From the NCBI GenBank assembly GCA_044224725.1, contig JBGAJW010000001.1, forward strand, positions 77,012 to 141,011: a DNA stretch of 64,000 nucleotides, read 5' to 3'. Position 1 is the first letter of the stretch; each line of letters opens with the position of its first letter. A program made the position numbers and the translations under genes. The notes under the pieces were generated by a model, which did no database searches, was not told the DNA's origin, and worked only from the letters and a program-made list of their open reading frames with translations. Of the stretch, positions 54,474 through 64,000 are shown in pieces. The stretch comes from Flavobacteriales bacterium (GTDB lineage: Bacteria; Bacteroidota; Bacteroidia; Flavobacteriales_F; PHOS-HE28).

Positions 54474-54720
54474 GAGCTTGATTGTGCCGAGCGGTACACA
54501 CTGGCGTGGAGGAAGTTCATGCGAGTGCTCGTTTGACTTTGGAGGCCACGGCAAATCACTTCTCAAAGCTCCTCACTGGAGATCCGCCGACGCCCGACCT
54601 CCTTTATATTCGACTTCTGCTGCGAGACACCAGCAGCATGCCCGCGGCTATTTGCACCCATCTTAGCACTAAGGTCATCGGCAGTACCCTCGCTGACCAA
54701 GTCAGGAAATTGACCCAACA

Positions 54721-55215
54721 TTGGCAACAACCGATAAGTTAGACCGCACAAGACACGTCGTGCATCAATCCGAGCCGGAGGTTGTTCAATCCGCCACGCT
54801 GATTATTTCTGGCGGCGACTTTGATCCCGCCGAAGTAACCAGCATGCTTAGCCTACGCCCCAACCAGGCGTGGAGGAAAGGCGAGCGAAAGTCTCTCACC
54901 CTTGCGGATGGGACAAAGCGCCTCTTTGACTCTGTACACGAATTGAGCGGATGGAAGATGTGGCTCGACGAACCGGAGCGCTCGCGATCACTTTCCGATC
55001 AATTGGAGCATTGGGATGAACTGCTCAGAGCACGGTCCACAGAACTTGCGCAGCTACGCGACCGAGGGGCGAGTATCGTGCTGGATTGCTGCGTGATCAC
55101 TTCTACGACCGCGAAGGTGCATACCTCCCCGGCAATTCAAGCTGCATTCTCCGACATGGGTATCCATCTCGACATAACGTTCTACGCTCATGATGACCCG
55201 GACGGCGCGGCCTAA
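54721..55215 (+). CDS. DUF4279-like small protein (uncertain). Lower GC (about 55%) than the surroundings.
   Basis: N-terminal ATLIISGGDFDPAEVTSMLSLRP matches the remembered DUF4279 core. Not verified. Confidence 0.45.
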   Translation: MATTDKLDRTRHVVHQSEPEVVQSATLIISGGDFDPAEVTSMLSLRPNQAWRKGERKSLTLADGTKRLFDSVHELSGWKMWLDEPERSRSLSDQLEHWDELLRARSTELAQLRDRGASIVLDCCVITSTTAKVHTSPAIQAAFSDMGIHLDITFYAHDDPDGAA

Positions 55216-55370
55216 TCGGCGGTTGACCGCCATTCCGCCAAGGCCCTGACCATCGTTCAACACCGAATGACCTAGATGATGGGCAGCACACGATGCCCTT
55301 GGCGAATCCGGTCCGCCTCGCCTCCCTCCCCCCTTTGCTGCATCTTCGCCCTCCCGCTTGAGCCGGGACG

Positions 55371-55826
55371 ATGACGATGACGGCCCCTGTAATGCCCGAA
55401 GTGAAGAACCGACGCGCGTCGTTCGAGTACTTCTTCCTGGAGACCTACGAATGCGGCATCCAGCTGGTGGGCAGCGAGGTGAAGGCCCTGCGCCTGGGCG
55501 ATGCCAACATCACGGACGCGTTCTGCACCTTCGAGGGCGACGACCTGGTGCTGCGCAACATGACGATCCAGCCGTTCGAGAAGGCGAAGAACTACGCGCA
55601 CGAGCCCAAACGCGACCGCCGCCTTTTGCTTCACCGTACCGAATTGAACAAGCTGCAACGCAAGCTGAAAGACCAAGGGGTGACGATGGTGCCGGTGCGG
55701 GTCTATTTCAATGCCAAGGGCCTGGTGAAGGTGGAAGTGGCGCTGGCGAAGGGCAAGAAGACCTACGACAAGCGGGACAGTTTGAAGGAGAAGGACATCA
55801 AACGGGACATGGATCGGGGGGAGTGA
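55371..55826 (+). CDS. smpB: SsrA-binding protein SmpB.
   Basis: Full SmpB signature (NRRASFEYFFLETYECGIQLVGSEVKALR...LLLHRTELNKL...GKKTYDKRD). Confidence 0.9.
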   Translation: MTMTAPVMPEVKNRRASFEYFFLETYECGIQLVGSEVKALRLGDANITDAFCTFEGDDLVLRNMTIQPFEKAKNYAHEPKRDRRLLLHRTELNKLQRKLKDQGVTMVPVRVYFNAKGLVKVEVALAKGKKTYDKRDSLKEKDIKRDMDRGE

Positions 55827-55976
55827 GCAAGGGAGAAACGCAGAGTCGCGGAGGGGCGCGGAGGAACGCAGAGAAAGAGAAAACACAGACACGCGGGCTC
55901 GCTGCGCTCGCTCAGAGAACGCAGAGGAATGCAGACCAACGAAGAACAGGGACCGGGTTGGCGCGAACGGCTCGAA

Positions 55977-57947
55977 ATGAGCACGGCCACATTCCTGCCA
56001 ACTACACTTCTGGAACGCGTCACCTTGTTCCTGCTCCTGCTACTGGCCCTGGTCCTGCGCTTCTGGGGCTTCCCTGACATACCGTATACGCACGACGAGA
56101 TCAGTGCCTTGGTGCGCGTGGACTTCCCGACGCTCGGCGATGCGATCAGCAAGGGCGTATGGAACATCGATACGCACCCGCCGGGCACGCATGCCTTCCT
56201 GTGGTACTGGACACGTCTCTTCGGTTTCGGCGATGGCGCGGTGAAGGCACCGTTCATATTGATGAGCGTGGTGGCGCTGTTCTGCTTGTACCGTTTCGCG
56301 CACGCTTGGGCAGGCGCTTCCGTGGCGGTCATCACTACCGCATTGCTCGCCACGATGCAGTACACGGTGATGTACGGCCAGATCGCACGGCCCTATGCCA
56401 TGGGCCTCTTCACCACGGCGCTGTTGGCGGACCAACTCACGCGCTTCATCGGAACGGGTCGCCGATCGAACCTGGTCGCGATGGTGATGGCCGCGGTCCT
56501 CAGCGCGTACACCCACCATTTCGCGTTGATGCTCGCCGCCTTCATGTGCGGAACGGGCTTCTTCCTCATCGACCCGTCACGCCGCAAGTCCTACCTCATC
56601 GCCCTAGCGGTATCCGTTGCGTGCTACCTGCCGAACCTGCCGTTGTTTTTCGCACAGCTCGGCTGGAAGGGACTGGACGAGTGGCTCACGGCCCCTGCGC
56701 CGGACTGGACCCTGAACTACCTCTGGTGGATCGGGCATTGCTCGGTGCTCTTTGCGGGATTGTTGGTCCTGCTGGTCGGTGCTGCGGCCGGTTTCCGGAT
56801 CGTGCGCAAGGGCAGCTCGAAGCCATTATGGGCGATCGCGTTGATCTGGGGCCTGCTTCCGTTGGTGGTCGGCTATACATACTCCGTGCTGCGTTCTCCG
56901 GTCCTCCAGTACAGCGTTGTGTTGTTCTCCTTCCCTTATCTCCTCGTGGGCGTGTTGGCGGGTTTGCGCCATTTGACCGTGACGCAGGGGGGCGCGGTCG
57001 CGGTCGTTTCTGCGGCCGTGTCGACGTTCACGCTGATCGATGTCAGGCAACACTACGCCGTCTTCAACCACAGCAAGTACGAAGCGATCGTGCGCGGCAC
57101 ACAGGAAGCCGAGGCGACCGGTGCGCTGGCCATCGTGGATCTGCCGCCTGAAGTGATGGCGTTCTACAGGAAGCTCTGGTGCATCACACCCTCGCAAGCG
57201 CCGTTCGTGAACCTGCGTTTCGGGACCGCCTCCATGCTGGACAGCACCTTGATCGCAACGAAGGTCAGCAGTGTTTTCTACGGGCAGACCACACAGGCGG
57301 AACCGGAGAACGTGGCGAAGGTGCAAGCGCGATTCCCGTTCCTGCTGGAGCGCCATGACCGCTACGAGGGGCAGACCTTCGTTTTCGCCGCTCGGCCTGA
57401 TGGAGAAGCACTTGACGACCTTGGTACTTCACAGGTAAAAACGCCCGAAGTGTTGCAGGCGGATGGTTGGGAGGTGGACGCCAAGATCCCGTTGATCGTC
57501 GATACCACTGCGGGCGGTTATGGCGGCATGGCCCCGAAGCGATGGGACTTTACCGGGCACGAGTACGGCGCGGTGTACGACGGACCGGTCTACCAATTGG
57601 CGAAAGGCCCGAACGATGTGATCGAAGTGCGTGCCGACTTCACCTCCGTGGACCCCGCCAGCGACATGTCGCTCGTGGTGGAATTGAAGAAAGGCGACAT
57701 CACCCGATTCTACCGCGCCGCACAGATGACGGATGCGTTGAATTCGGGGAACAACGTGTCGCTCATTACTGCGGTGAAACTGGCCGACATCCCCGGACAC
57801 GGCGAGGGCCTGCGCCTGCGCACCTACCTCTACAACCCTGCGCGCAAGAAGGCGCTGATCGGTTCGCTCGGCCTGCGCGTACGCGAAGGGAACCCCGTGC
57901 TTTACGGGCTGTTCCAGCCGATCACGGGGAAGTGGAAATACAAGTAG
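55977..57947 (+). CDS. Family 39 glycosyltransferase (ArnT/PMT-like polyprenyl-phosphate-sugar-dependent membrane glycosyltransferase).
   Basis: N-terminal multi-TM domain with a DE motif in the first loop (YTHDEISAL) and a large C-terminal soluble domain. The start could also be 55929. Confidence 0.7.
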   Translation: MSTATFLPTTLLERVTLFLLLLLALVLRFWGFPDIPYTHDEISALVRVDFPTLGDAISKGVWNIDTHPPGTHAFLWYWTRLFGFGDGAVKAPFILMSVVALFCLYRFAHAWAGASVAVITTALLATMQYTVMYGQIARPYAMGLFTTALLADQLTRFIGTGRRSNLVAMVMAAVLSAYTHHFALMLAAFMCGTGFFLIDPSRRKSYLIALAVSVACYLPNLPLFFAQLGWKGLDEWLTAPAPDWTLNYLWWIGHCSVLFAGLLVLLVGAAAGFRIVRKGSSKPLWAIALIWGLLPLVVGYTYSVLRSPVLQYSVVLFSFPYLLVGVLAGLRHLTVTQGGAVAVVSAAVSTFTLIDVRQHYAVFNHSKYEAIVRGTQEAEATGALAIVDLPPEVMAFYRKLWCITPSQAPFVNLRFGTASMLDSTLIATKVSSVFYGQTTQAEPENVAKVQARFPFLLERHDRYEGQTFVFAARPDGEALDDLGTSQVKTPEVLQADGWEVDAKIPLIVDTTAGGYGGMAPKRWDFTGHEYGAVYDGPVYQLAKGPNDVIEVRADFTSVDPASDMSLVVELKKGDITRFYRAAQMTDALNSGNNVSLITAVKLADIPGHGEGLRLRTYLYNPARKKALIGSLGLRVREGNPVLYGLFQPITGKWKYK

Positions 57948-58040
57948 GAACCCGGAAGCGACAAAGCCCAAGCTTCAGGCCCCAAGCTCCGACACGGAAA
58001 CTTTGAGCTTGAAGCTTGAGCCTTTTGTCTTGAAGCTTGC

Positions 58041-59018
58041 TCAGAGCTTGAACGACAGCCCGATGCCCAGCGTTTGTTTGAACTGCGTGCCGGGACCGGG
58101 TGCGGGTACCTTGGTGGTCACCCCTCCGATCGTTTCATCCTTCAACTTCGGTACGTCGATGTCGTGGTCGTAGAGGAGCAGGGTGTTGAAGGAAGCGCCG
58201 AACCAGCTGTTGATCTTCAACGTCCACAGGGTTTCCCATGAAACGTCGATGTTCTGCGGGTTCCGGAGGTAGTTGCTGTACAGGTCGCCACGTGTGAGGA
58301 AGGTGAAGTTCTTGGTGATGTCCTTCTTGTATTGCGCGCGGAGGTAGGCTCCAACCTCGACCTCGGTGGTACTACCGGCCTTCACACCGTAAACACGGAA
58401 GTCCGACGCGGCGCTATCAGGGAAGAGGCTCTTGTCGTTGACCATGGTCAGTTTCATGGCGGCAGGCGAAACGAAGACCGAGAAATTGTCGCTCGGACGG
58501 TAGTCGAATCCTGGCGCCAGGATGAGGTAGGCCGGCGCGAACAGGTTGGAGATGCGGTTGCCGGAGCCATCGAAGCCTTCCGTGAACTGGGTCTTGAACT
58601 GGCCCAGCATCGAGAAGTACCACGGCCCCTTCAACTCATGGCCCCACTTGCTGTTCACCTCGATGCGGTCATCGGTCTTCGATGGCGCGCCGTCAGCGAA
58701 GCTGTAGCCCTGTGGCGCCTGCAATTGGCCACCGAAGGCCAGGATGAGCGAATTGTCCCAAACATTCTTGCCGTTGTGGCGGTTCGCGAACCCGTTGAAC
58801 AGCATGATCCCGCCAAGGCTGTTGTTACCACCAGCAGCCCAGTTGGTGAGGCTCACCTGCGTGATGTTGATATTGAACGTGGCGCCTTTTGTCCAGATCT
58901 TACCTGAAGAATCGGCTGCGGACAAGGGTGCGGACTCGCGGATGACCTTGGTGGCATCCTGCGCTTGGGCGTTACCTAATGTCAGGAGGAAGGCAGAGAG
59001 GGGGATCAGGCGTTTCAT
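58041..59018 (-). CDS. DUF3078-family outer-membrane beta-barrel protein.
   Basis: Signal peptide and the family-typical INITQVSLTNWAAGGNNS motif. Confidence 0.7.
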   Translation of the reverse strand: MKRLIPLSAFLLTLGNAQAQDATKVIRESAPLSAADSSGKIWTKGATFNINITQVSLTNWAAGGNNSLGGIMLFNGFANRHNGKNVWDNSLILAFGGQLQAPQGYSFADGAPSKTDDRIEVNSKWGHELKGPWYFSMLGQFKTQFTEGFDGSGNRISNLFAPAYLILAPGFDYRPSDNFSVFVSPAAMKLTMVNDKSLFPDSAASDFRVYGVKAGSTTEVEVGAYLRAQYKKDITKNFTFLTRGDLYSNYLRNPQNIDVSWETLWTLKINSWFGASFNTLLLYDHDIDVPKLKDETIGGVTTKVPAPGPGTQFKQTLGIGLSFKL

Positions 59019-59056
59019 GATCGGGTGTTCAATGTTGGCGTTGTTCAGGGTGGAGA

Positions 59057-59881
59057 TCAGTTGATGTTGCGCACGAGCATTTCCTTCTGCGGGCCTTTCA
59101 CGTTCGCGGCATTGAGTGCATCACGGCCCTTCTCATAGGTACCGAAGTACACATCCCAGTAGTGGGCAGGATCGCACCAGGGGCGAACGGCCAATTCAAC
59201 ACCGTCCATGGTGAGTTTGCTCACGGTCACGGAGGGCGCAGGTTCCTTCAGCACGAGCGGATCCGCGGCCATGGACGCGTTGAGCACATCGCGCACTTTG
59301 GTGATGGACTCCTCGTTGCCCACCATGAAGGAGAGGTCCACGCGCATCTTGCCGTCCGCGCTGTAGTTGATGATGTTACCGTTGGCCATGGCCCCGTTGG
59401 GGATGATGGCGGTCTTGTTCTCCGGAGTAAGCAGGATGGTGGTGAAGATCTGGATCTCCTTCACGTTGCCTAGCACACCTTGCGCCTCGATGAGGTCGCC
59501 GAGCTTGTAAGGTTTGAAGAGCAGGATGAGGGTTCCTCCTGCGAAGTTGGCCAAGGTGCCCTGCAACGCCAGACCGACGGCCAAGCCCGCCGCCCCGATG
59601 ATCGCCACGAAGCTGGTGGTCTGCACACCCATCATCTGGATCGCTGTAATGAACAGCAGAATGCGCAAGGAGATGGTAACGAGGCTGTGCAAGAAGCGCT
59701 TCAATGTGGGTTCAACCCCACGTCGGTCGAGCACACGTCCCAGCACTTTGGCCAGCATGCGGATCAGCATCGAGCCGATCCACAGGACAACGAGCGCCAT
59801 GATGACCTTGGGCGCGTACTCCATCGCGAGGTCCATGGCCTTCTGGCCATAGATGTTCATCTGGTCGACCTGTTGGTTCAT
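59057..59881 (-). CDS. mscS: Small-conductance mechanosensitive channel (MscS family).
   Basis: Three TM helices plus the MscS beta-domain (KPYKLGDLIEAQGVLGNVKEIQIFTTILLTPENKTAIIPNG). Confidence 0.85.
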   Translation of the reverse strand: MNQQVDQMNIYGQKAMDLAMEYAPKVIMALVVLWIGSMLIRMLAKVLGRVLDRRGVEPTLKRFLHSLVTISLRILLFITAIQMMGVQTTSFVAIIGAAGLAVGLALQGTLANFAGGTLILLFKPYKLGDLIEAQGVLGNVKEIQIFTTILLTPENKTAIIPNGAMANGNIINYSADGKMRVDLSFMVGNEESITKVRDVLNASMAADPLVLKEPAPSVTVSKLTMDGVELAVRPWCDPAHYWDVYFGTYEKGRDALNAANVKGPQKEMLVRNIN

Positions 59882-59929
59882 ACGAGGAGGGTGTGAATAT
59901 CGCGTTCGTCTATCGCCCGGTCGTCAATG

Positions 59930-60754
59930 TTATTCTACAGCGTCCAACACTTCTATGCGTTCCGTCATGAGCTGGCGCGTCGGTAACAGGACCAGCCGGT
60001 CGCTGGTGCGAAGGGCGATGCTCACGCTATCGATCTTCTCGATCACGCCCTCATCGGCCCCGATGCGCAGCCGCATGCCGGGCTTGAAGCGCTCTTTCCC
60101 ATAGTAGCTGCCCAGCATGTTCGCCAGAATATCGCGGGAGGCCATTCCGTAGGCTACGCTGAACGCGACGAGGATGCCGCCTACGAGCAACAGGATGTTG
60201 GACGTGATCAAGGTGGTATCCACCCCTGCCATATTCAAGGCGGTGATGGACATGAAGAGCACGATCACGGCGAAGAAGATGCGACCGAGGATCCTTCCGC
60301 CTATGAGCCCGACACTGCCGCTAAGGTTGGTGGCCAGATTCTGGACGCGCTCCCCGAGCCACACACCGAAAACGAAAATGCCCACGGAGGTGAGCAGCAC
60401 GGGCACGTAGCTGAAGAAGCTGTGGATGGCTTCCGTGATGATGGCCAGGTCCATCACCTTGGCCGAGGCCAGGATGAAGAACAATTGCACCAGCCAATAG
60501 GCCAAGGTGCTCACCACGACGGAGATCCCGCCCAAGCGACCGAACACACGGTCCACACCGCTTCGCTCAGCGGCTCCATGCAGACCGGTCTTCTTGAAGA
60601 TCCGGTCCACGAGCAAGCGGAGCAGCCGGGCGAGCCCCCAGCCGACAAGCAACAGCAGGAGACCCGCACCGATAGCAGGAAGTGACTGGAGTATCCCGCC
60701 GAGGTACTCGTTGAAAGCCTGCGAAACGCGTTCGGTGAAGTAGGAGAGATCCAT
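59930..60754 (-). CDS. Mechanosensitive ion channel family protein (conserved-TM-helix-repeat type).
   Basis: Repeated TM-helix motifs and an MscS-like C-terminal beta domain (GMRLRIGADEGVIEKIDSVSIALRTSD). Confidence 0.7.
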   Translation of the reverse strand: MDLSYFTERVSQAFNEYLGGILQSLPAIGAGLLLLLVGWGLARLLRLLVDRIFKKTGLHGAAERSGVDRVFGRLGGISVVVSTLAYWLVQLFFILASAKVMDLAIITEAIHSFFSYVPVLLTSVGIFVFGVWLGERVQNLATNLSGSVGLIGGRILGRIFFAVIVLFMSITALNMAGVDTTLITSNILLLVGGILVAFSVAYGMASRDILANMLGSYYGKERFKPGMRLRIGADEGVIEKIDSVSIALRTSDRLVLLPTRQLMTERIEVLDAVE

Positions 60755-60765
60755 GGGATGGGGGG

Positions 60766-60969
60766 TCAGGTCTTCTTGGGTGGGCGTCGCTCACCATCAT
60801 CTCCGATGATGCGCACGTTGTTGAACAGGGTCATCGCGTAATCGGCCATGAAGAGTTGGGCGAACCGCATGAGGAGCATGACGAACTTCACGCTGCCGAC
60901 CACCTCTTCCCGCAGTTGGGGAGGTGGTTCGTCCGTGGACCGGATGAGCTTGAATGGATTCTCGCTCAT
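60766..60969 (-). CDS. Small protein (67 aa) co-transcribed with the ECF sigma factor (4-nt ATGA overlap). Candidate anti-sigma or sigma-associated factor.
   Basis: Position and overlap only. It has an amphipathic helix. No motif. Confidence 0.35.
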   Translation of the reverse strand: MSENPFKLIRSTDEPPPQLREEVVGSVKFVMLLMRFAQLFMADYAMTLFNNVRIIGDDGERRPPKKT

Positions 60970-61550
60970 GGTTCCTCGGGAAAAAGTGAGCGGTACTTCA
61001 CCAGCGCGCGTTCCCGGGCGCGGAGCAAACGCATCTTCACGGCGCTCTCGCTCAGGCCGAACGCGTCCTGTATCTCGCTGATGGCGAGTTCGTCGTCATA
61101 CTTCATCAACAGCAACGCGCGGTCGGCCGGATCGATCTCATGGAGAACCCGCTCCAGACGCTCGGCACGCAACCCCAAGAGCATCGCTTCGCTGGCCTCG
61201 TCCGTCACCCCACCACCCTCGTTCCGCTCGTCTATATCATCCTCCCGGTGGCGCTGGCTCTTGCGCAGGCTGTCAAGGCAATAGTTGTAGGTGATACTGT
61301 ATACCCACGTGCCGAACTTGCTACGGTGGTCGAACTTGACGAGGTTCAAGAAGACTTTCAGGAAGATGTCGTGGGTAAGGTCCTTCGCCAAGTCGCGATC
61401 GCGCGTCATGCCAACGCACTTCTGGAACACCTTGGATGAGTAGCGATCGTACAGCACGGCAAAGCGTTCGGTATCCATCTCCTTCTGGAGCAGGGACACC
61501 AACTCCTCGTCGGTCAGCGACTGGTCCTTCTTCGCCCTGCTCTTGAACAA
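60966..61550 (-). CDS. RNA polymerase ECF-type sigma-70 factor.
   Basis: Region 2 (DLTHDIFLKVF...FGTWVYSITYN) and region 4 HTH (LAISEIQDAFGLSESAVKMRLLRARERA). Confidence 0.85.
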   Translation of the reverse strand: MFKSRAKKDQSLTDEELVSLLQKEMDTERFAVLYDRYSSKVFQKCVGMTRDRDLAKDLTHDIFLKVFLNLVKFDHRSKFGTWVYSITYNYCLDSLRKSQRHREDDIDERNEGGGVTDEASEAMLLGLRAERLERVLHEIDPADRALLLMKYDDELAISEIQDAFGLSESAVKMRLLRARERALVKYRSLFPEEP

Positions 61551-61603
61551 CTGGGTGGACAGTTGGTGCCGTTGGGACGGGGGAGCGTCATAGGGGTCAC
61601 AGT

Positions 61604-62125
61604 TCAGGGCTGGACAGTGAAGTCCTGGCCCGTAAATCGGTTATCTACCGGGATGCGCATCCGCAATTCAGGGTGGCCTGTAACGCGGTGGCAGCTATTG
61701 CATGTATTGATGAGCGCTTCATAACGGTCGCTGAACTCCTTCAAGCCGTCCGTGGCGAGCTGCTCTTTCAGCGCGTCGATGGCGCGGATGCCATAGACCT
61801 TCATGTGGTCGCTCACAGGTACGCCATCGGCCACCACGTTCCCGTTGGCCACGACCTCCATCTCTTCCTTGATCTCATGGCGATAGAACTTGGCCAGTTC
61901 CAGATTTCCAGCTTGGCCCGCCCACCAGAGTTTTTCCGCGTGATGCTGGATGCGGGCCATGTAGTGTGCCACCTCAATGGGTTCACCTGCAGGAGCTGAG
62001 GCCACCACGGAGCCGGTACCGGGTTTGGCCCCTTTCTTCAGTTCCTCTTGGAGCGAGTTCTGACGAACGAAAACGACAAAAACGCCGACCAAGGCGATCA
62101 CAGCGAGTACGGTGGAACGGTCCAT
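61604..62125 (-). CDS. Membrane-anchored putative c-type cytochrome (single CxxCH).
   Basis: N-terminal TM anchor and a CNSCH heme-binding motif near the C-terminus. Confidence 0.45.
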   Translation of the reverse strand: MDRSTVLAVIALVGVFVVFVRQNSLQEELKKGAKPGTGSVVASAPAGEPIEVAHYMARIQHHAEKLWWAGQAGNLELAKFYRHEIKEEMEVVANGNVVADGVPVSDHMKVYGIRAIDALKEQLATDGLKEFSDRYEALINTCNSCHRVTGHPELRMRIPVDNRFTGQDFTVQP

Positions 62126-62520
62126 GAGGAACAAGGCCCCGGCCTGGGGAGCAGCTCGGGTCGCCTTCTGAGGCAGTGGACGCTACTGGAGCCTCGCCAG
62201 ACTCAGTCCACCATCACAGAGGCACGCCGGTCGCGGGTTTGCCGGGGTCGGGGAAGTTGATTTTCGCTGGTTCTGTCCCGTCTGAGTGCCGATGGCTAGG
62301 ACGGGGACAATAGTAGCCACTTCTGTCGTCACTGTAAGGTCAAATCCGGTCCCGGCCCTTCCCCCGATCGACCAAAAACCAGCCTCCCGGGGATGGACAT
62401 CCCAATAGTGTCCCCACGTCTCACCGTGGAGACAACCGTTCTTCCAAGGACAAGTTTTCTACTTTGCTCCCAACCAATCTCTTGGCGTCACTATATTCGC
62501 CGATCATGTGACGGATTTTT

Positions 62521-64000
62521 CGTCGATCTCATGAACCGCGCTATAGAACACGCGATCGACCAGCTCGGGTACAGGCAGGAGCCCACCTTCTACCACCATG
62601 AGGATAGCGCGCGCTGGAGCGAACTACCCCGCCGCACTTTGCGGACTCTAGAGGAGTTAAAGCCATATGCCTTCCTGTGCATTGATGAACGCCCCTTCAT
62701 TGTCTTTTTCGACACCGGAGGGAGCGACACGGAGACCATCCGGATCAACCAATCCTGCTGGAACGCTCAAATACCGGTCGTTCTGCTCTTTCACCAAGAA
62801 CAGGTAACGATATACAATGGGCTACGCTTGCTTTCGGGAAAGAAAACGCTGGATATTTTAACAATTCATGGGTACGATGATCTTACCCTATCCAATATTC
62901 AATCCCAGCCATTTTGGGACAAGTGCTTCATTGCGGATGATACGCTGGACGCATTGCTGCTGGACAATATTAAGAGCATCACAAATAACCTACGTGCGAA
63001 TGGCCTGCGTGAACATGCAACCAGAATAATCCTTCGCCTCATATTTATCCGATACCTGGTCGACCGAGGAATCAACTTCAACTTCTTTGGATTTAACGGA
63101 AATCGAAATCAGGATCGAGAGCTACTCAAGGAAATAGTCACGAACAAAAACGAACTATACGATCTCTTTGAGTACCTCCAAATCAAGTTCAATGGTGGAA
63201 TGTTCGCAGTTCAACCGGGTGAACTTGAAAGCCTAACCGATCGGCACCTGCTGGACCTTTCAAGCTTCATCAGTGGAGACATCAATCTCCGCACTGGACA
63301 GAAGAGCTTCTTTGACCTGTATGATTTTCGGATACTCCCGATTGAACTACTCTCGGCTATCTACGAGAAGTTCATTGGGGCTGAAACCCAACAGGAGGAT
63401 AAAGCATTCTATACACCGCCATACTTAGTCGAGCACATTCTCGACAAGCTCTTTGCTGGCAAGAACATCCAACGAGCGAGGGTATTGGACCCTGCTTGTG
63501 GAAGTGGCGTATTTCTAGTGGAAGCCCTGCGCCGCATCATTGAACAGTACCTGCAGTCGGGCGATCGCCATCTCGATCCGAACCTCCTGAGAGTACTCGC
63601 CGAAACGGCTGTCACGGGCGTTGACCTGAATCCAGAAGCCGTTGCTGTCACCAAGTTCTCGATTTGCGTTCTGCTTTTGGACTACGTGGATCCCAAGCAT
63701 CTCCTGCTGTTCAAAATGCCTGAACTCCAGCGGAACATCATCCGGTCAGACACGTTCCGGGAGGATCTTCCCTTCCAATTGCTCTCCGACGGACACTTTG
63801 ATTACATCGTCGGCAATCCGCCCTGGGGCAACAAAGGCGGATCCCATTTGGAGTACTGCACCAACCGCGGAATACCACAACAATACCACGAAATATGCAG
63901 AAGTTTCATTGCTCGAACAAGGGATTTTTCAAGCCCTGAAACGATATGTTGTCTGATTATTGCCAGTAAAATACTTTACAACAAGGCTGGTGATGCACCA
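62521..64000 (+). CDS. Gamma-class N6-adenine DNA methyltransferase, type IIG restriction-modification enzyme / BREX PglX-like. 5' part only. The ORF is open at the window end and is not in the supplied ORF track.
   Basis: Own translation: 493 codons without a stop. It has motif X-like AFYTPPYLVEHIL, motif I VLDPACGSGVFLVEA, and motif IV DYIVGNPPWG. GC is about 48% against about 65% genome background. Confidence 0.75.

What the first reader, a model, noticed from the sequence alone, without database searches (positions are those of the whole stretch)
62270..64000. Abrupt GC drop and an unlisted long ORF for an N6-adenine DNA methyltransferase (type IIG / BREX PglX-like): edge of a defence island
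From about 62270 the GC falls from about 65% to about 48%. From 62521 a single frame stays open for 493 codons to the window end, so it is absent from the supplied ORF track. The product has AFYTPPYLVEHIL, VLDPACGSGVFLVEA (AdoMet motif I) and DYIVGNPPWG (motif IV). These occur in the order, and after a roughly 280-aa N-terminal domain, characteristic of Eco57I/MmeI-type bifunctional enzymes and of BREX PglX. A large MTase with foreign composition next to an ECF sigma module suggests a horizontally acquired restriction-modification, BREX or other defence island. Most of it lies beyond this window.
Basis: seen in the sequence. Interest (0 to 1): 0.66.

Follow-up and report, generated by a model that had tools for sequence, protein, structure and literature searches.

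The report
Two-gene restriction system on tRNA-Val island
The open frame at the window's end is the first half of a 957-aa adenine DNA methyltransferase that is always paired with a small, unnamed nuclease gene; the pair sits on a mobile island inserted in a tRNA-Val gene, and the island can also carry a complete BREX phage-defence system.

Summary
The open frame has the phase of 62522, not 62521, and is open from 62300. The called start is ATG 62531. GC falls from 0.61 to 0.50, not from 65% to 48%. All three motifs are present.

Metagenome contigs 99.9% identical to the window extend it. The gene encodes a 957-aa gamma-class N6-adenine MTase with a fused target recognition domain (TRD). A 217-aa gene follows 2 nt later, with an invariant PD-(D/E)xK set (E42, D85, E106-x-K108).

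The MTase N-terminal domain has no conserved catalytic residues across 71 homologues. In 74 of 76 evaluable genomes the small gene lies directly behind such an MTase. One pair of systems swapped the TRD while keeping the nuclease at 82-97% identity.

I therefore read it as a two-subunit restriction-modification (RM) system whose nuclease acts in trans and borrows the MTase's specificity. It is not a single-chain Type IIG enzyme and not PglX.

Syntenic relatives have an intact tRNA-Val(GAC) and msrB at this site instead. Here a 15-nt repeat at 62176-62190 marks an insertion. The short form is about 5.4 kb: the pair plus an integrase. The long form adds a nested element of about 31 kb carrying BrxA, BrxB, BrxC, PglX and BrxL.

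The "edge of a defence island" reading is right.

The parts
61604..62125 (-). Last core-genome gene before the island. It encodes a 173-aa protein with a CxxCH motif and no family hit. In relatives it is followed by tRNA-Val and msrB.
   Evidence: ORF list. The exact protein occurs on 23 contigs. Syntenic orthologues are in L033 and L037.
62176..62190 (-). Left island border: a 15-nt direct repeat (GTGGACGCTACTGGA), identical to the 3' end of tRNA-Val(GAC). The intact tRNA lies at the far end of the island, next to msrB.
   Evidence: Homology to relative L037 ends at 62190. Relatives have an intact tRNA-Val here. The same 14-15 nt close the intact tRNA-Val in L038 and L040. Contig L006 breaks at 62190.
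62191..62530 (.). Island-side leader upstream of the MTase gene. No sigma-70-like promoter was found and its function was not determined.
62531..62935 (+). MTase aa 1-135: N-terminal alpha/beta domain. It is conserved across the family (F59, W77-N78, P82, N96-G97) but has no D...(D/E)xK set. I propose it is the docking domain for the nuclease subunit (inferred).
   Evidence: AlphaFold model with pLDDT 84. Conservation over 25 and 71 homologues. Foldseek found nothing significant.
62936..63340 (+). MTase aa about 136-270: helical connector domain with the conserved IFIRYLxDR and FNGxxF motifs. It weakly resembles the MmeI helical region.
   Evidence: (5hr4, probability 0.72, not significant).
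63341..64000 (+). MTase aa about 271-490: first part of the gamma-class N6-adenine MTase domain. Motif X (YTPP) is at 63404-63442, motif I (DPACGSG) at 63482-63526, and motif IV (NPPW) at 63800-63829. The gene runs on to virtual position 65404 (957 aa).
   Evidence: The full gene is L001 6722-9595(-), and L001 is 99.9% identical to the window over its last 9 kb.

Best explanation
The ORF encodes the M~S subunit of a conserved two-gene restriction-modification (RM) system.

The 957-aa protein has four parts: a non-catalytic N-terminal alpha/beta domain, a helical connector, a gamma-class N6-adenine methyltransferase, and a C-terminal TRD. It recognises a specific sequence and methylates adenine to protect the host.

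The gene 2 nt downstream encodes a 217-aa PD-(D/E)xK nuclease. This nuclease has no specificity of its own. It is recruited in trans by the MTase and cuts unmethylated DNA at sites chosen by the MTase's TRD. Docking through the N-terminal domain is inferred, not shown. Functionally the system is a Type IIG enzyme whose R domain has become a separate subunit.

The pair is cargo of a small integrative islet, about 5.4 kb with its own tyrosine integrase, inserted in the 3' end of tRNA-Val(GAC). In some strains of this population a second integrative element of about 31 kb has inserted at a 26-nt tRNA-like att site between the nuclease gene and the integrase. That element carries a PrimPol-like gene and a BREX type-1-like operon. 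The result is a composite defence island.

Shown: gene content, linkage, conservation, and the island borders. Inferred: the physical R-M~S complex, cleavage activity, and anti-phage function.
For: Extension beyond the window
- L001/L018 are 99.9% identical to window 55000-64000.
- Cluster records place the 957-aa protein, the partner P0121 and the window's neighbour genes on one 143-kb NCBI contig.

MTase
- Pfam N6_Mtase and Eco57I both score above their cut-offs.
- PADLOC PDLC03603 matches aa 5-750 at 5.5e-102.
- The motif order is gamma-class.

Partner nuclease
- Homologues directly follow the MTase in unrelated contexts L012 and L014, E about 1e-12.
- An exhaustive search finds 164 clusters of stand-alone proteins of about 220 aa.
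- E42, D85, E106, C107, K108, G124, R127 and Y133 are invariant in 50 sequences.

Obligate linkage
- In 74 of 76 evaluable genomes from many phyla, the MTase lies immediately upstream on the same strand. In 71 of these the N-terminal domain is detected 2.9-3.1 kb upstream.
- The genes abut or overlap in all 68 intact pairs.

No nuclease site in the MTase
- In aa 1-140 only L12, A47, F59, W77, N78, P82, N96, G97 and L107 are at least 85% conserved.

The partner is not the specificity determinant
- The L047 and L048 MTases are about 90% identical except aa about 640-880, which are 17-45% identical. Their partners stay 82-97% identical.

Joint decay
- In L011 the MTase lacks its first 175 aa or so, and only a 78-aa remnant of the partner follows.

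Island
- Relatives L033 and L037 have the 173-aa gene, then tRNA-Val, then msrB.
- The 26-nt core occurs once in the short configuration and twice in the long one.
- BREX proteins were confirmed by PADLOC.
Against: - There is no experimental evidence and no interaction prediction, because a multimer model could not be run.
- Across the family, the TRD-containing region and the partner co-vary overall (r = 0.86). Only one clean TRD swap and two partial ones were found.
- The role of the N-terminal domain as a docking site is pure inference.
- Continuity of the long configuration rests on overlapping contigs from sister samples. A gap of about 4 kb (end of pglX, pglZ) is not covered.
- Which configuration the window's own genome has is unknown.
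Confidence: 0.6

Rival explanations
1. Classical Type II RM system. The 217-aa protein is an independent, sequence-specific restriction endonuclease, and the large MTase merely protects the same site. The N-terminal 270 aa of the MTase would serve some other purpose, such as regulation or oligomerisation.
For: Small stand-alone PD-(D/E)xK REases paired with gamma-class MTase-TRD fusions are common, for example the TaqI type (review PMC4081073). The partner is a complete, well-folded protein. The partner and the TRD-containing region co-vary overall.
Against: The TRD cassette swap between L047 and L048 left the partner 82-97% identical. That would be lethal for an independent REase of fixed specificity. 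The partner family is linked almost exclusively to one MTase family that includes its N-terminal domain (74 of 76 loci). Classical REases are not tied to one MTase architecture in this way. The N-terminal domain and the partner decay together in L011.
Confidence: 0.2
2. Single-chain bifunctional Type IIG/IIL enzyme of the Eco57I/MmeI type, with the nuclease in the N-terminal domain. The downstream gene would be an accessory or unrelated.
For: The best PADLOC model is named REase_MTase_IIG and covers aa 5-750. The size, about 960-1050 aa, and the domain order resemble Type IIG. The best structural hit, though weak, is MmeI.
Against: The reviews define Type IIG by an N-terminal cleavage domain with a PD-(D/E)xK site. 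No such residues are conserved here: D52 is only 66% conserved and there is no ExK. The intact catalytic set is in the obligately linked partner.
Confidence: 0.06
3. The MTase is the PglX of a BREX system, or the MTase of MADS or DISARM.
For: There are weak local hits to PglX, MAD2 and DrmMI models over the MTase core. A BREX operon lies in the same island in the long configuration.
Against: NCBIfam scores are 50 against 400 for BREX-2 PglX, 27 against 500 for BREX-1, and 46 against 720 for MAD2. The BREX operon has its own PglX at 1173 bits. The pair occurs without BREX in the short configuration and in over 70 other genomes. BREX lies in a separate nested element bounded by its own att repeats.
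Confidence: 0.02
4. Not a defence system: an addiction or epigenetic module. Here the MTase would act as a regulatory orphan-like methylase, and the nuclease would serve post-segregational killing or element maintenance only.
For: The pair sits on mobile elements: the islet here, plasmids pCLD and Sagittula p5, and next to recombinases in L012. RM systems are known to behave as selfish modules (established knowledge).
Against: This is not exclusive with restriction. The architecture, TRD diversification and co-location with BREX are typical of defence.
Confidence: 0.1

Closest known systems
Type IIG/IIL restriction-modification enzymes (Eco57I, MmeI, BpuSI)
   Same: A gamma-class N6A MTase with a helical connector upstream and a fused C-terminal TRD, about 1000 aa in all. 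One TRD presumably directs both methylation and cleavage. TRD cassettes swap within the family.
   Different: In Type IIG the PD-(D/E)xK R domain is part of the same chain at the N-terminus (PMC3874165, PMC4081073). Here the N-terminal domain has no catalytic residues, and the nuclease is a separate 217-aa protein encoded immediately downstream.
Type IIB BcgI/BsaXI (RM + S subunits), and Type I / Type III systems
   Same: These are multi-subunit enzymes in which a nuclease without its own specificity is harnessed to an MTase/TRD module.
   Different: BcgI splits off S, not R. Type I and Type III R subunits are large ATP-dependent translocases or helicases. Here R is a minimal 217-aa nuclease with no ATPase, and M and S are fused.
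Heterodimeric Type IIS/IIT nucleases with a small catalytic subunit (for example R.BspD6I: a large recognition subunit plus a small subunit)
   Same: A small catalytic subunit that cannot find its target alone and relies on a large sequence-recognising partner (reference list of PMC4081073; otherwise my own knowledge).
   Different: The large subunit there is a nickase, not a methyltransferase, and protection comes from separate MTases.
Haloferax volcanii HVO_A0006 / HVO_A0237 (hypothesised split Type IIG)
   Same: A roughly 219-aa PD-(D/E)xK protein proposed to complement, in trans, a Type IIG-like MTase that lacks a nuclease domain (PMC4389544).
   Different: That case is a transposon-severed fragment, homologous to the N-terminal domains of fused enzymes, rare, and not adjacent to its proposed partner. 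Here the arrangement is an ancient, conserved operon found in at least 232 species. The nuclease is encoded downstream, and the MTase keeps a distinct non-catalytic N-terminal domain.
BREX type 1 (BrxA-BrxB-BrxC-PglX-PglZ-BrxL)
   Same: It is present in the same island in the long configuration. PglX is also a gamma-class MTase with a helical N-terminal region.
   Different: It is a separate nested element with its own PglX. The window's MTase does not reach any PglX model's cut-off.

Membership tests
Gamma-class N6-adenine DNA methyltransferase (Pfam N6_Mtase / Eco57I) | Motif order X (YTP), then I (DPxxGxG), then IV (NPPY/F/W) | tested here: met
   AFYTPP at 63404, DPACGSG at 63482 and NPPW at 63800. 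All are 98-100% conserved in 71 homologues.
Gamma-class N6-adenine DNA methyltransferase (Pfam N6_Mtase / Eco57I) | Score above the Pfam gathering threshold | tested here: met
   PF02384 scores 63.5 against 20.4, PF07669 52.9 against 25.3, and PF20473 28.3 against 27.
Type IIG (single-chain R~gammaM~S) | Nuclease catalytic domain, PD-(D/E)xK or equivalent, in the same polypeptide N-terminal to the MTase | tested here: not met
   No conserved D/E/K set in aa 1-270 across 25 and 71 homologues. No significant nuclease fold match.
Type IIG (single-chain R~gammaM~S) | Fused C-terminal TRD that diversifies by cassette exchange | tested here: met
   The C-terminal 420-470 aa are present in all 68 systems. 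There is a localised swap at aa about 640-880 between L047 and L048.
Type IIG (single-chain R~gammaM~S) | Match to a profile built from REBASE Type IIG entries | tested here: met
   PADLOC PDLC03603, 5.5e-102, aa 5-750. This is name-level only and does not show nuclease activity.
BREX PglX | Score above the NCBIfam PglX cut-offs | tested here: not met
   50.4 against 400 (BREX-2), 27.1 against 500 (BREX-1) and 31.4 against 900 (BREX-6).
BREX PglX | Encoded within a brxA/B/C-pglZ operon | tested here: not met
   The operon further along the island has its own PglX at 1173 bits. The pair exists without BREX in the short configuration and in 74 other genomes.
MADS MAD2 | NCBIfam equivalog cut-off | tested here: not met
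   45.7 against 720 bits.
PD-(D/E)xK nuclease superfamily (217-aa partner) | Conserved catalytic D...(D/E)xK, with an upstream E | tested here: met
   E42, D85, E106 and K108 are invariant in 50 sequences.
PD-(D/E)xK nuclease superfamily (217-aa partner) | [quoted passage not shown] | tested here: met
   The model (pLDDT 90) has H42-54, E65-69, E86-90, E103-110, H114-129 and E139-146.
PD-(D/E)xK nuclease superfamily (217-aa partner) | Significant sequence or structure similarity to a known member | tested here: inconclusive
tRNA-integrated genomic island | Insertion at the 3' end of a tRNA gene, with a direct repeat at the distal border | tested here: met
   The 15-nt repeat at 62176-62190 equals the 3' end of the intact tRNA-Val in L038 and L040.
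tRNA-integrated genomic island | Absent from syntenic relatives (empty site) | tested here: met
   L033 and L037 have the 173-aa gene, then tRNA-Val, then msrB, with no insert.
tRNA-integrated genomic island | Integrase next to the tRNA, and atypical base composition | tested here: met
   int408 scores 46.7 bits on PF00589 and lies adjacent to tRNA-Val. GC is 0.50 against 0.61.

The most novel reading that the evidence does not exclude
This gene pair represents an undescribed organisational class of restriction-modification enzyme, R + M~S. A minimal, specificity-less PD-(D/E)xK subunit docks on a degenerate N-terminal domain of a Type IIG-like methyltransferase-TRD protein. The class is widespread: at least 232 of about 186,000 species, across Bacteroidota, Bacillota, Acidobacteriota, Planctomycetota, CPR and others. 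In current annotation the nuclease is 'hypothetical protein' and the MTase is mislabelled as a bifunctional Type IIG enzyme. Like the MmeI family, its specificity could be reprogrammed through the TRD alone, but with a detachable nuclease.
Probability: 0.45. Interest if true: 0.6.

Novelty: new variant of a known kind. Interest (0 to 1): 0.5.

Why it matters
If the trans-acting model is right, many proteins that PADLOC-type pipelines call "Type IIG" are not bifunctional enzymes. Their true nuclease is an unannotated neighbouring gene. That would change how RM content and orphan MTases are counted in genomes.

It would also add a missing organisational variant to the series that links Type I, IIB and IIG enzymes: R separate, with M and S fused.

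A small detachable nuclease directed by a swappable TRD would be an attractive scaffold for engineering.

The locus is also a clean natural example of nested defence-island assembly. A minimal integrase-plus-RM islet sits in a tRNA gene and itself supplies the att site for a BREX-carrying element. Both states are captured in one population.

Tried and rejected
- The first scan of representative genomes with the window fragment found no relative. The word-index search gave at most 47% identity and did not return the protein itself.
- The word-index search with the 217-aa protein returned only itself. The exhaustive HMMER search was needed.
- Foldseek against the PDB gave no significant match for either model.
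- The partner-family profile had no hit among PDB sequences.
- hhalign of the partner family against the MTase family found nothing, so there is no sign that the N-terminal domain is a decayed paralogue of the partner.
- I looked for a second copy of the 26-nt att core, or of the tRNA fragment, near the left border or within the first 9 kb of the island. None was found there. The copies turned out to lie at the far end.
- No tRNA gene is present in the window or in contigs L018-L020 and L024.
- No sigma-70-type promoter was found upstream of the MTase.
- The partner family has no match in phage records.
The NCBI copy of int408 (P0304) is not in the contig index, so the configuration in the window's own assembly stays unknown.
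- Literature searches found no description of this architecture. The library holds only open-access papers and not REBASE, so absence is weak evidence.
- Organism names could not be obtained. Bacteroidota is inferred from DUF3078 and T9SS-type neighbours only.

Full report
**1. Checking the observation**

The open frame is one base to the right, in the phase of 62522. It is open from 62300 to the window end, 567 codons.

The three quoted motifs are all there, in gamma-class order: AFYTPPYLVEHIL at 63404, VLDPACGSGVFLVEA at 63482 and DYIVGNPPWG at 63800.

GC is 0.612 up to 62269 and 0.499 from 62270. This is the lowest 1.7-kb stretch of the window, more than 5 sd below the mean.

**2. Extending the window**

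An exact-protein look-up of the neighbouring 173-aa gene returned metagenome contigs (L001/L018 and others). These are 99.9-100% identical to window 55000-64000. The conversion is: window x = 72126 minus the L001 coordinate.

Cluster records show that the window's neighbour genes, a 957-aa MTase and the next protein all lie on one 143-kb NCBI contig, presumably the source of the window.

The gene starts at ATG 62531. Homologue N-termini support this start. It encodes 957 aa.

Virtual coordinates beyond 64000:

| Feature | Virtual coordinates |
|---|---|
| MTase | to 65404 |
| 217-aa gene | 65407-66060 |
| 26-nt att core | 66128-66153 |
| int411 | 66319-67554 |
| HNH_5-like 339-aa gene | 67674-68693 |
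| 149-aa gene | following, coordinates not computed |
| 164-aa gene with a UVR motif | following, coordinates not computed |
| PrimPol/VirE-N-like 506-aa gene | 70397-71917 (-) |
| BrxA | 74308-75096 |
| BrxB | 75083-75652 |
| BrxC | 75649-79068 |
| 309-aa gene | 79071-80000 |
| PglX | 80004 onward |

**3. What the MTase is**

Pfam N6_Mtase and Eco57I both score above their thresholds. PADLOC's best model is PDLC03603, named "REase_MTase_IIG". It scores 5.5e-102 and covers aa 5-750 of the protein.

The PglX and MAD2 equivalogs are far below cut-off: 50 against 400 bits, and 46 against 720.

The closest solved relative by sequence is the orphan MTase CamA, and the match covers the MTase core only.

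**4. The downstream gene is the key**

The 217-aa protein has no Pfam, NCBIfam or PADLOC hit. However, it is homologous to the genes that directly follow MTase homologues in two unrelated contexts, L012/L013 and L014, at E about 1e-12.

An exhaustive HMMER search found 164 clusters of stand-alone proteins of about 220 aa. In an alignment of 50 of them, E42, D85, E106, C107, K108, G124, R127 and Y133 are invariant.

**5. The MTase's own N-terminal domain is not a nuclease**

The N-terminal 300 aa fold confidently (pLDDT 84) into an alpha/beta domain (aa 1-135) plus a helical connector.

Across 25 and then 71 homologues, the only residues in aa 1-140 that are at least 85% conserved are L12, A47, F59, W77, N78, P82, N96, G97 and L107. 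No acidic or lysine set is conserved.

Structural matches are insignificant. The best is the MmeI helical region, at probability 0.72.

[quoted passage not shown] They list only R~M fusions, with S either fused or separate. That defining feature is not met here.

**6. Obligate linkage and the source of specificity**

Scanning one genome per species with the partner profile gave 232 loci, of which 80 were fetched.

- In 74 of the 76 loci with enough upstream DNA, an MTase of this family lies immediately upstream on the same strand.
- In 71 of these the N-terminal domain is detected, starting 2.9-3.1 kb upstream.
- In the 68 intact pairs the MTases are 961-1057 aa and the genes abut or overlap.

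The hosts span Bacteroidota, Bacillota, Acidobacteriota, Planctomycetota, Spirochaetota, Campylobacterota, CPR and others.

The MTases of L047 (Parabacteroides) and L048 (Butyricimonas) are about 90% identical. The exception is a cassette of about 240 aa, at aa about 640-880, which is only 17-45% identical. Their partners remain 82-97% identical. An independent sequence-specific REase could not survive such a swap, whereas a specificity-less subunit could.

In a decayed copy (L011) the N-terminal domain and the partner are both lost.

RefSeq annotates the pair on plasmids as "N-6 DNA methylase" plus "hypothetical protein".

**7. Mechanism proposed**

This section is inferred. The M~S protein recognises a site through its TRD and methylates adenine. 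The small nuclease is held in trans, probably through the conserved non-catalytic N-terminal domain and/or the helical connector. It cuts DNA when the site is unmodified.

In effect this is a Type IIG enzyme with a detached R subunit. The 2-nt spacing between the genes suggests translational coupling.

**8. The island**

Two syntenic relatives share the gene order SmpB, PMT_2, DUF3078, MscS and the 173-aa gene (L033 also has the second MscS-like gene, the 67-aa gene and the ECF sigma factor, which were not called in L037). They are L033 (about 76% nt identity) and L037 (about 80-89%). Both continue with tRNA-Val(GAC), msrB, a TonB-dependent receptor and FA_hydroxylase. Neither has the MTase.

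In the window, only the last 15 nt of the tRNA survive, at 62176-62190, and homology to the relatives stops at 62190. In the same metagenome the intact tRNA-Val lies next to msrB at the far end, followed by a tyrosine integrase, int408 (PF00589, 46.7 bits).

Two configurations exist in the metagenomes:

- **Short.** Four contigs from different runs show tRNA-Val, int408, the 26-nt core, the nuclease gene, the MTase gene and then the direct repeat. This form is about 5.4 kb.
- **Long.** The 26-nt core (GGGGTTCGAATCCCTCCGGGCTCACT, resembling the T-arm and acceptor end of a tRNA) is duplicated. The two copies flank an element of about 31 kb. The element begins with int411 and carries the PrimPol-like gene, BrxA, BrxB, BrxC, a 309-aa gene, PglX and then BrxL, an IS1595 fragment and an HTH_17 gene.

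Several contigs break exactly at this core or at 62190, as expected where strains differ.

The stretch of about 4 kb between the end of pglX and brxL is not covered. PglZ was seen only in a related MAG, L026, whose BREX genes are 87-88% identical at the nucleotide level. Which configuration the window's own genome has is unknown.

**9. Comparison with known systems and novelty**

The module works like a Type IIG, Type IIB or Type I relative, but it fails the Type IIG membership test because there is no R domain in cis. It is not PglX.

The nearest published idea is the one-off Haloferax HVO_A0006 hypothesis of a split Type IIG enzyme.

I found no description of a conserved R + M~S family. However, REBASE could not be consulted, and only open-access literature was searched.

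I rate the module a new variant of a known kind, of moderate interest. The island structure itself is ordinary biology, but unusually well resolved.

Noticed in passing
L029 4947-5876 (virtual window about 79071-80000); compare L026 18190-18996: In this population's BREX operon an unannotated 309-aa gene sits between brxC and pglX. In the related MAG (L026) pglX follows brxC directly, and an unannotated 268-aa gene sits between pglX and pglZ. Neither extra gene hits any PADLOC model.
   Followed up: partly
L019 4671-4696; L038 7930-7955; L041 1389-1414: A 26-nt tRNA-like sequence, resembling a T-arm plus acceptor 3' end but not part of any detectable tRNA gene, lies just after the int408 stop codon. 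It serves as the attachment site for the BREX-carrying element, so one island nests inside another.
   Followed up: yes
L011 6001-9185 (Planctomycetaceae MAG, GCA_031279215.1): A decayed copy of the system is inserted inside a cobalamin (cbi) operon. Its MTase lacks the first 175 aa or so, and only a 78-aa remnant of the nuclease gene follows. It looks like a system on its way to becoming an orphan MTase.
   Followed up: partly
L012 545-5959 / L013: Here the closest homologous system (42% identity) is preceded by an 81-aa HTH_3 protein, which resembles a C-type controller. Its MTase is split into 764 + 197 aa. A large serine recombinase follows.
   Followed up: no
L001 3433-4452(-), 2351-2845(+), 209-1729(+) (virtual window about 67674-71917): The BREX element also encodes three other notable proteins. 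One is a Cys-rich 339-aa protein with a weak HNH_5 hit. One is a 164-aa protein with a UvrB/UvrC-type UVR motif. One is a 506-aa BT4734-like/PrimPol protein (PADLOC RTasVirE-PriCT2, 4e-14).
   Followed up: no
window 59057-61550: The core neighbourhood holds an ECF sigma factor (60966-61550, -) overlapping a 67-aa ORF (60766-60969, -) that could be its anti-sigma factor. Two tandem MscS-like channel genes follow (59930-60754 and 59057-59881, -). The sigma factor, the 67-aa ORF and both channel genes recur in relative L033; in L037 only one MscS-like gene was called.
   Followed up: partly
window about 54600-55370; L033 7060-9241; L002 9261-9716: There is a second strain-variable spot just upstream of smpB. 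Relative L033 carries a tyrosine integrase plus a Macro-domain gene there. One contig of this population (L002) has a DUF4279 gene called there. The window has a 164-aa ORF at 54721-55215.
   Followed up: no
L038 14433-14801: A DDE_Tnp_IS1595 transposase fragment (122 aa) lies between brxL and the int408-proximal genes of the long configuration.
   Followed up: no
L026 4500-5080 (GCA_002482775.1): In another MAG a closely related BREX cassette (87-88% nt identity) sits behind a different integrase, only 27% identical. It lies next to another tRNA-like fragment with a 17-nt direct repeat (GTGCCCAGGACTGGACT). This suggests the BREX cassette moves between different integrative backbones.
   Followed up: partly
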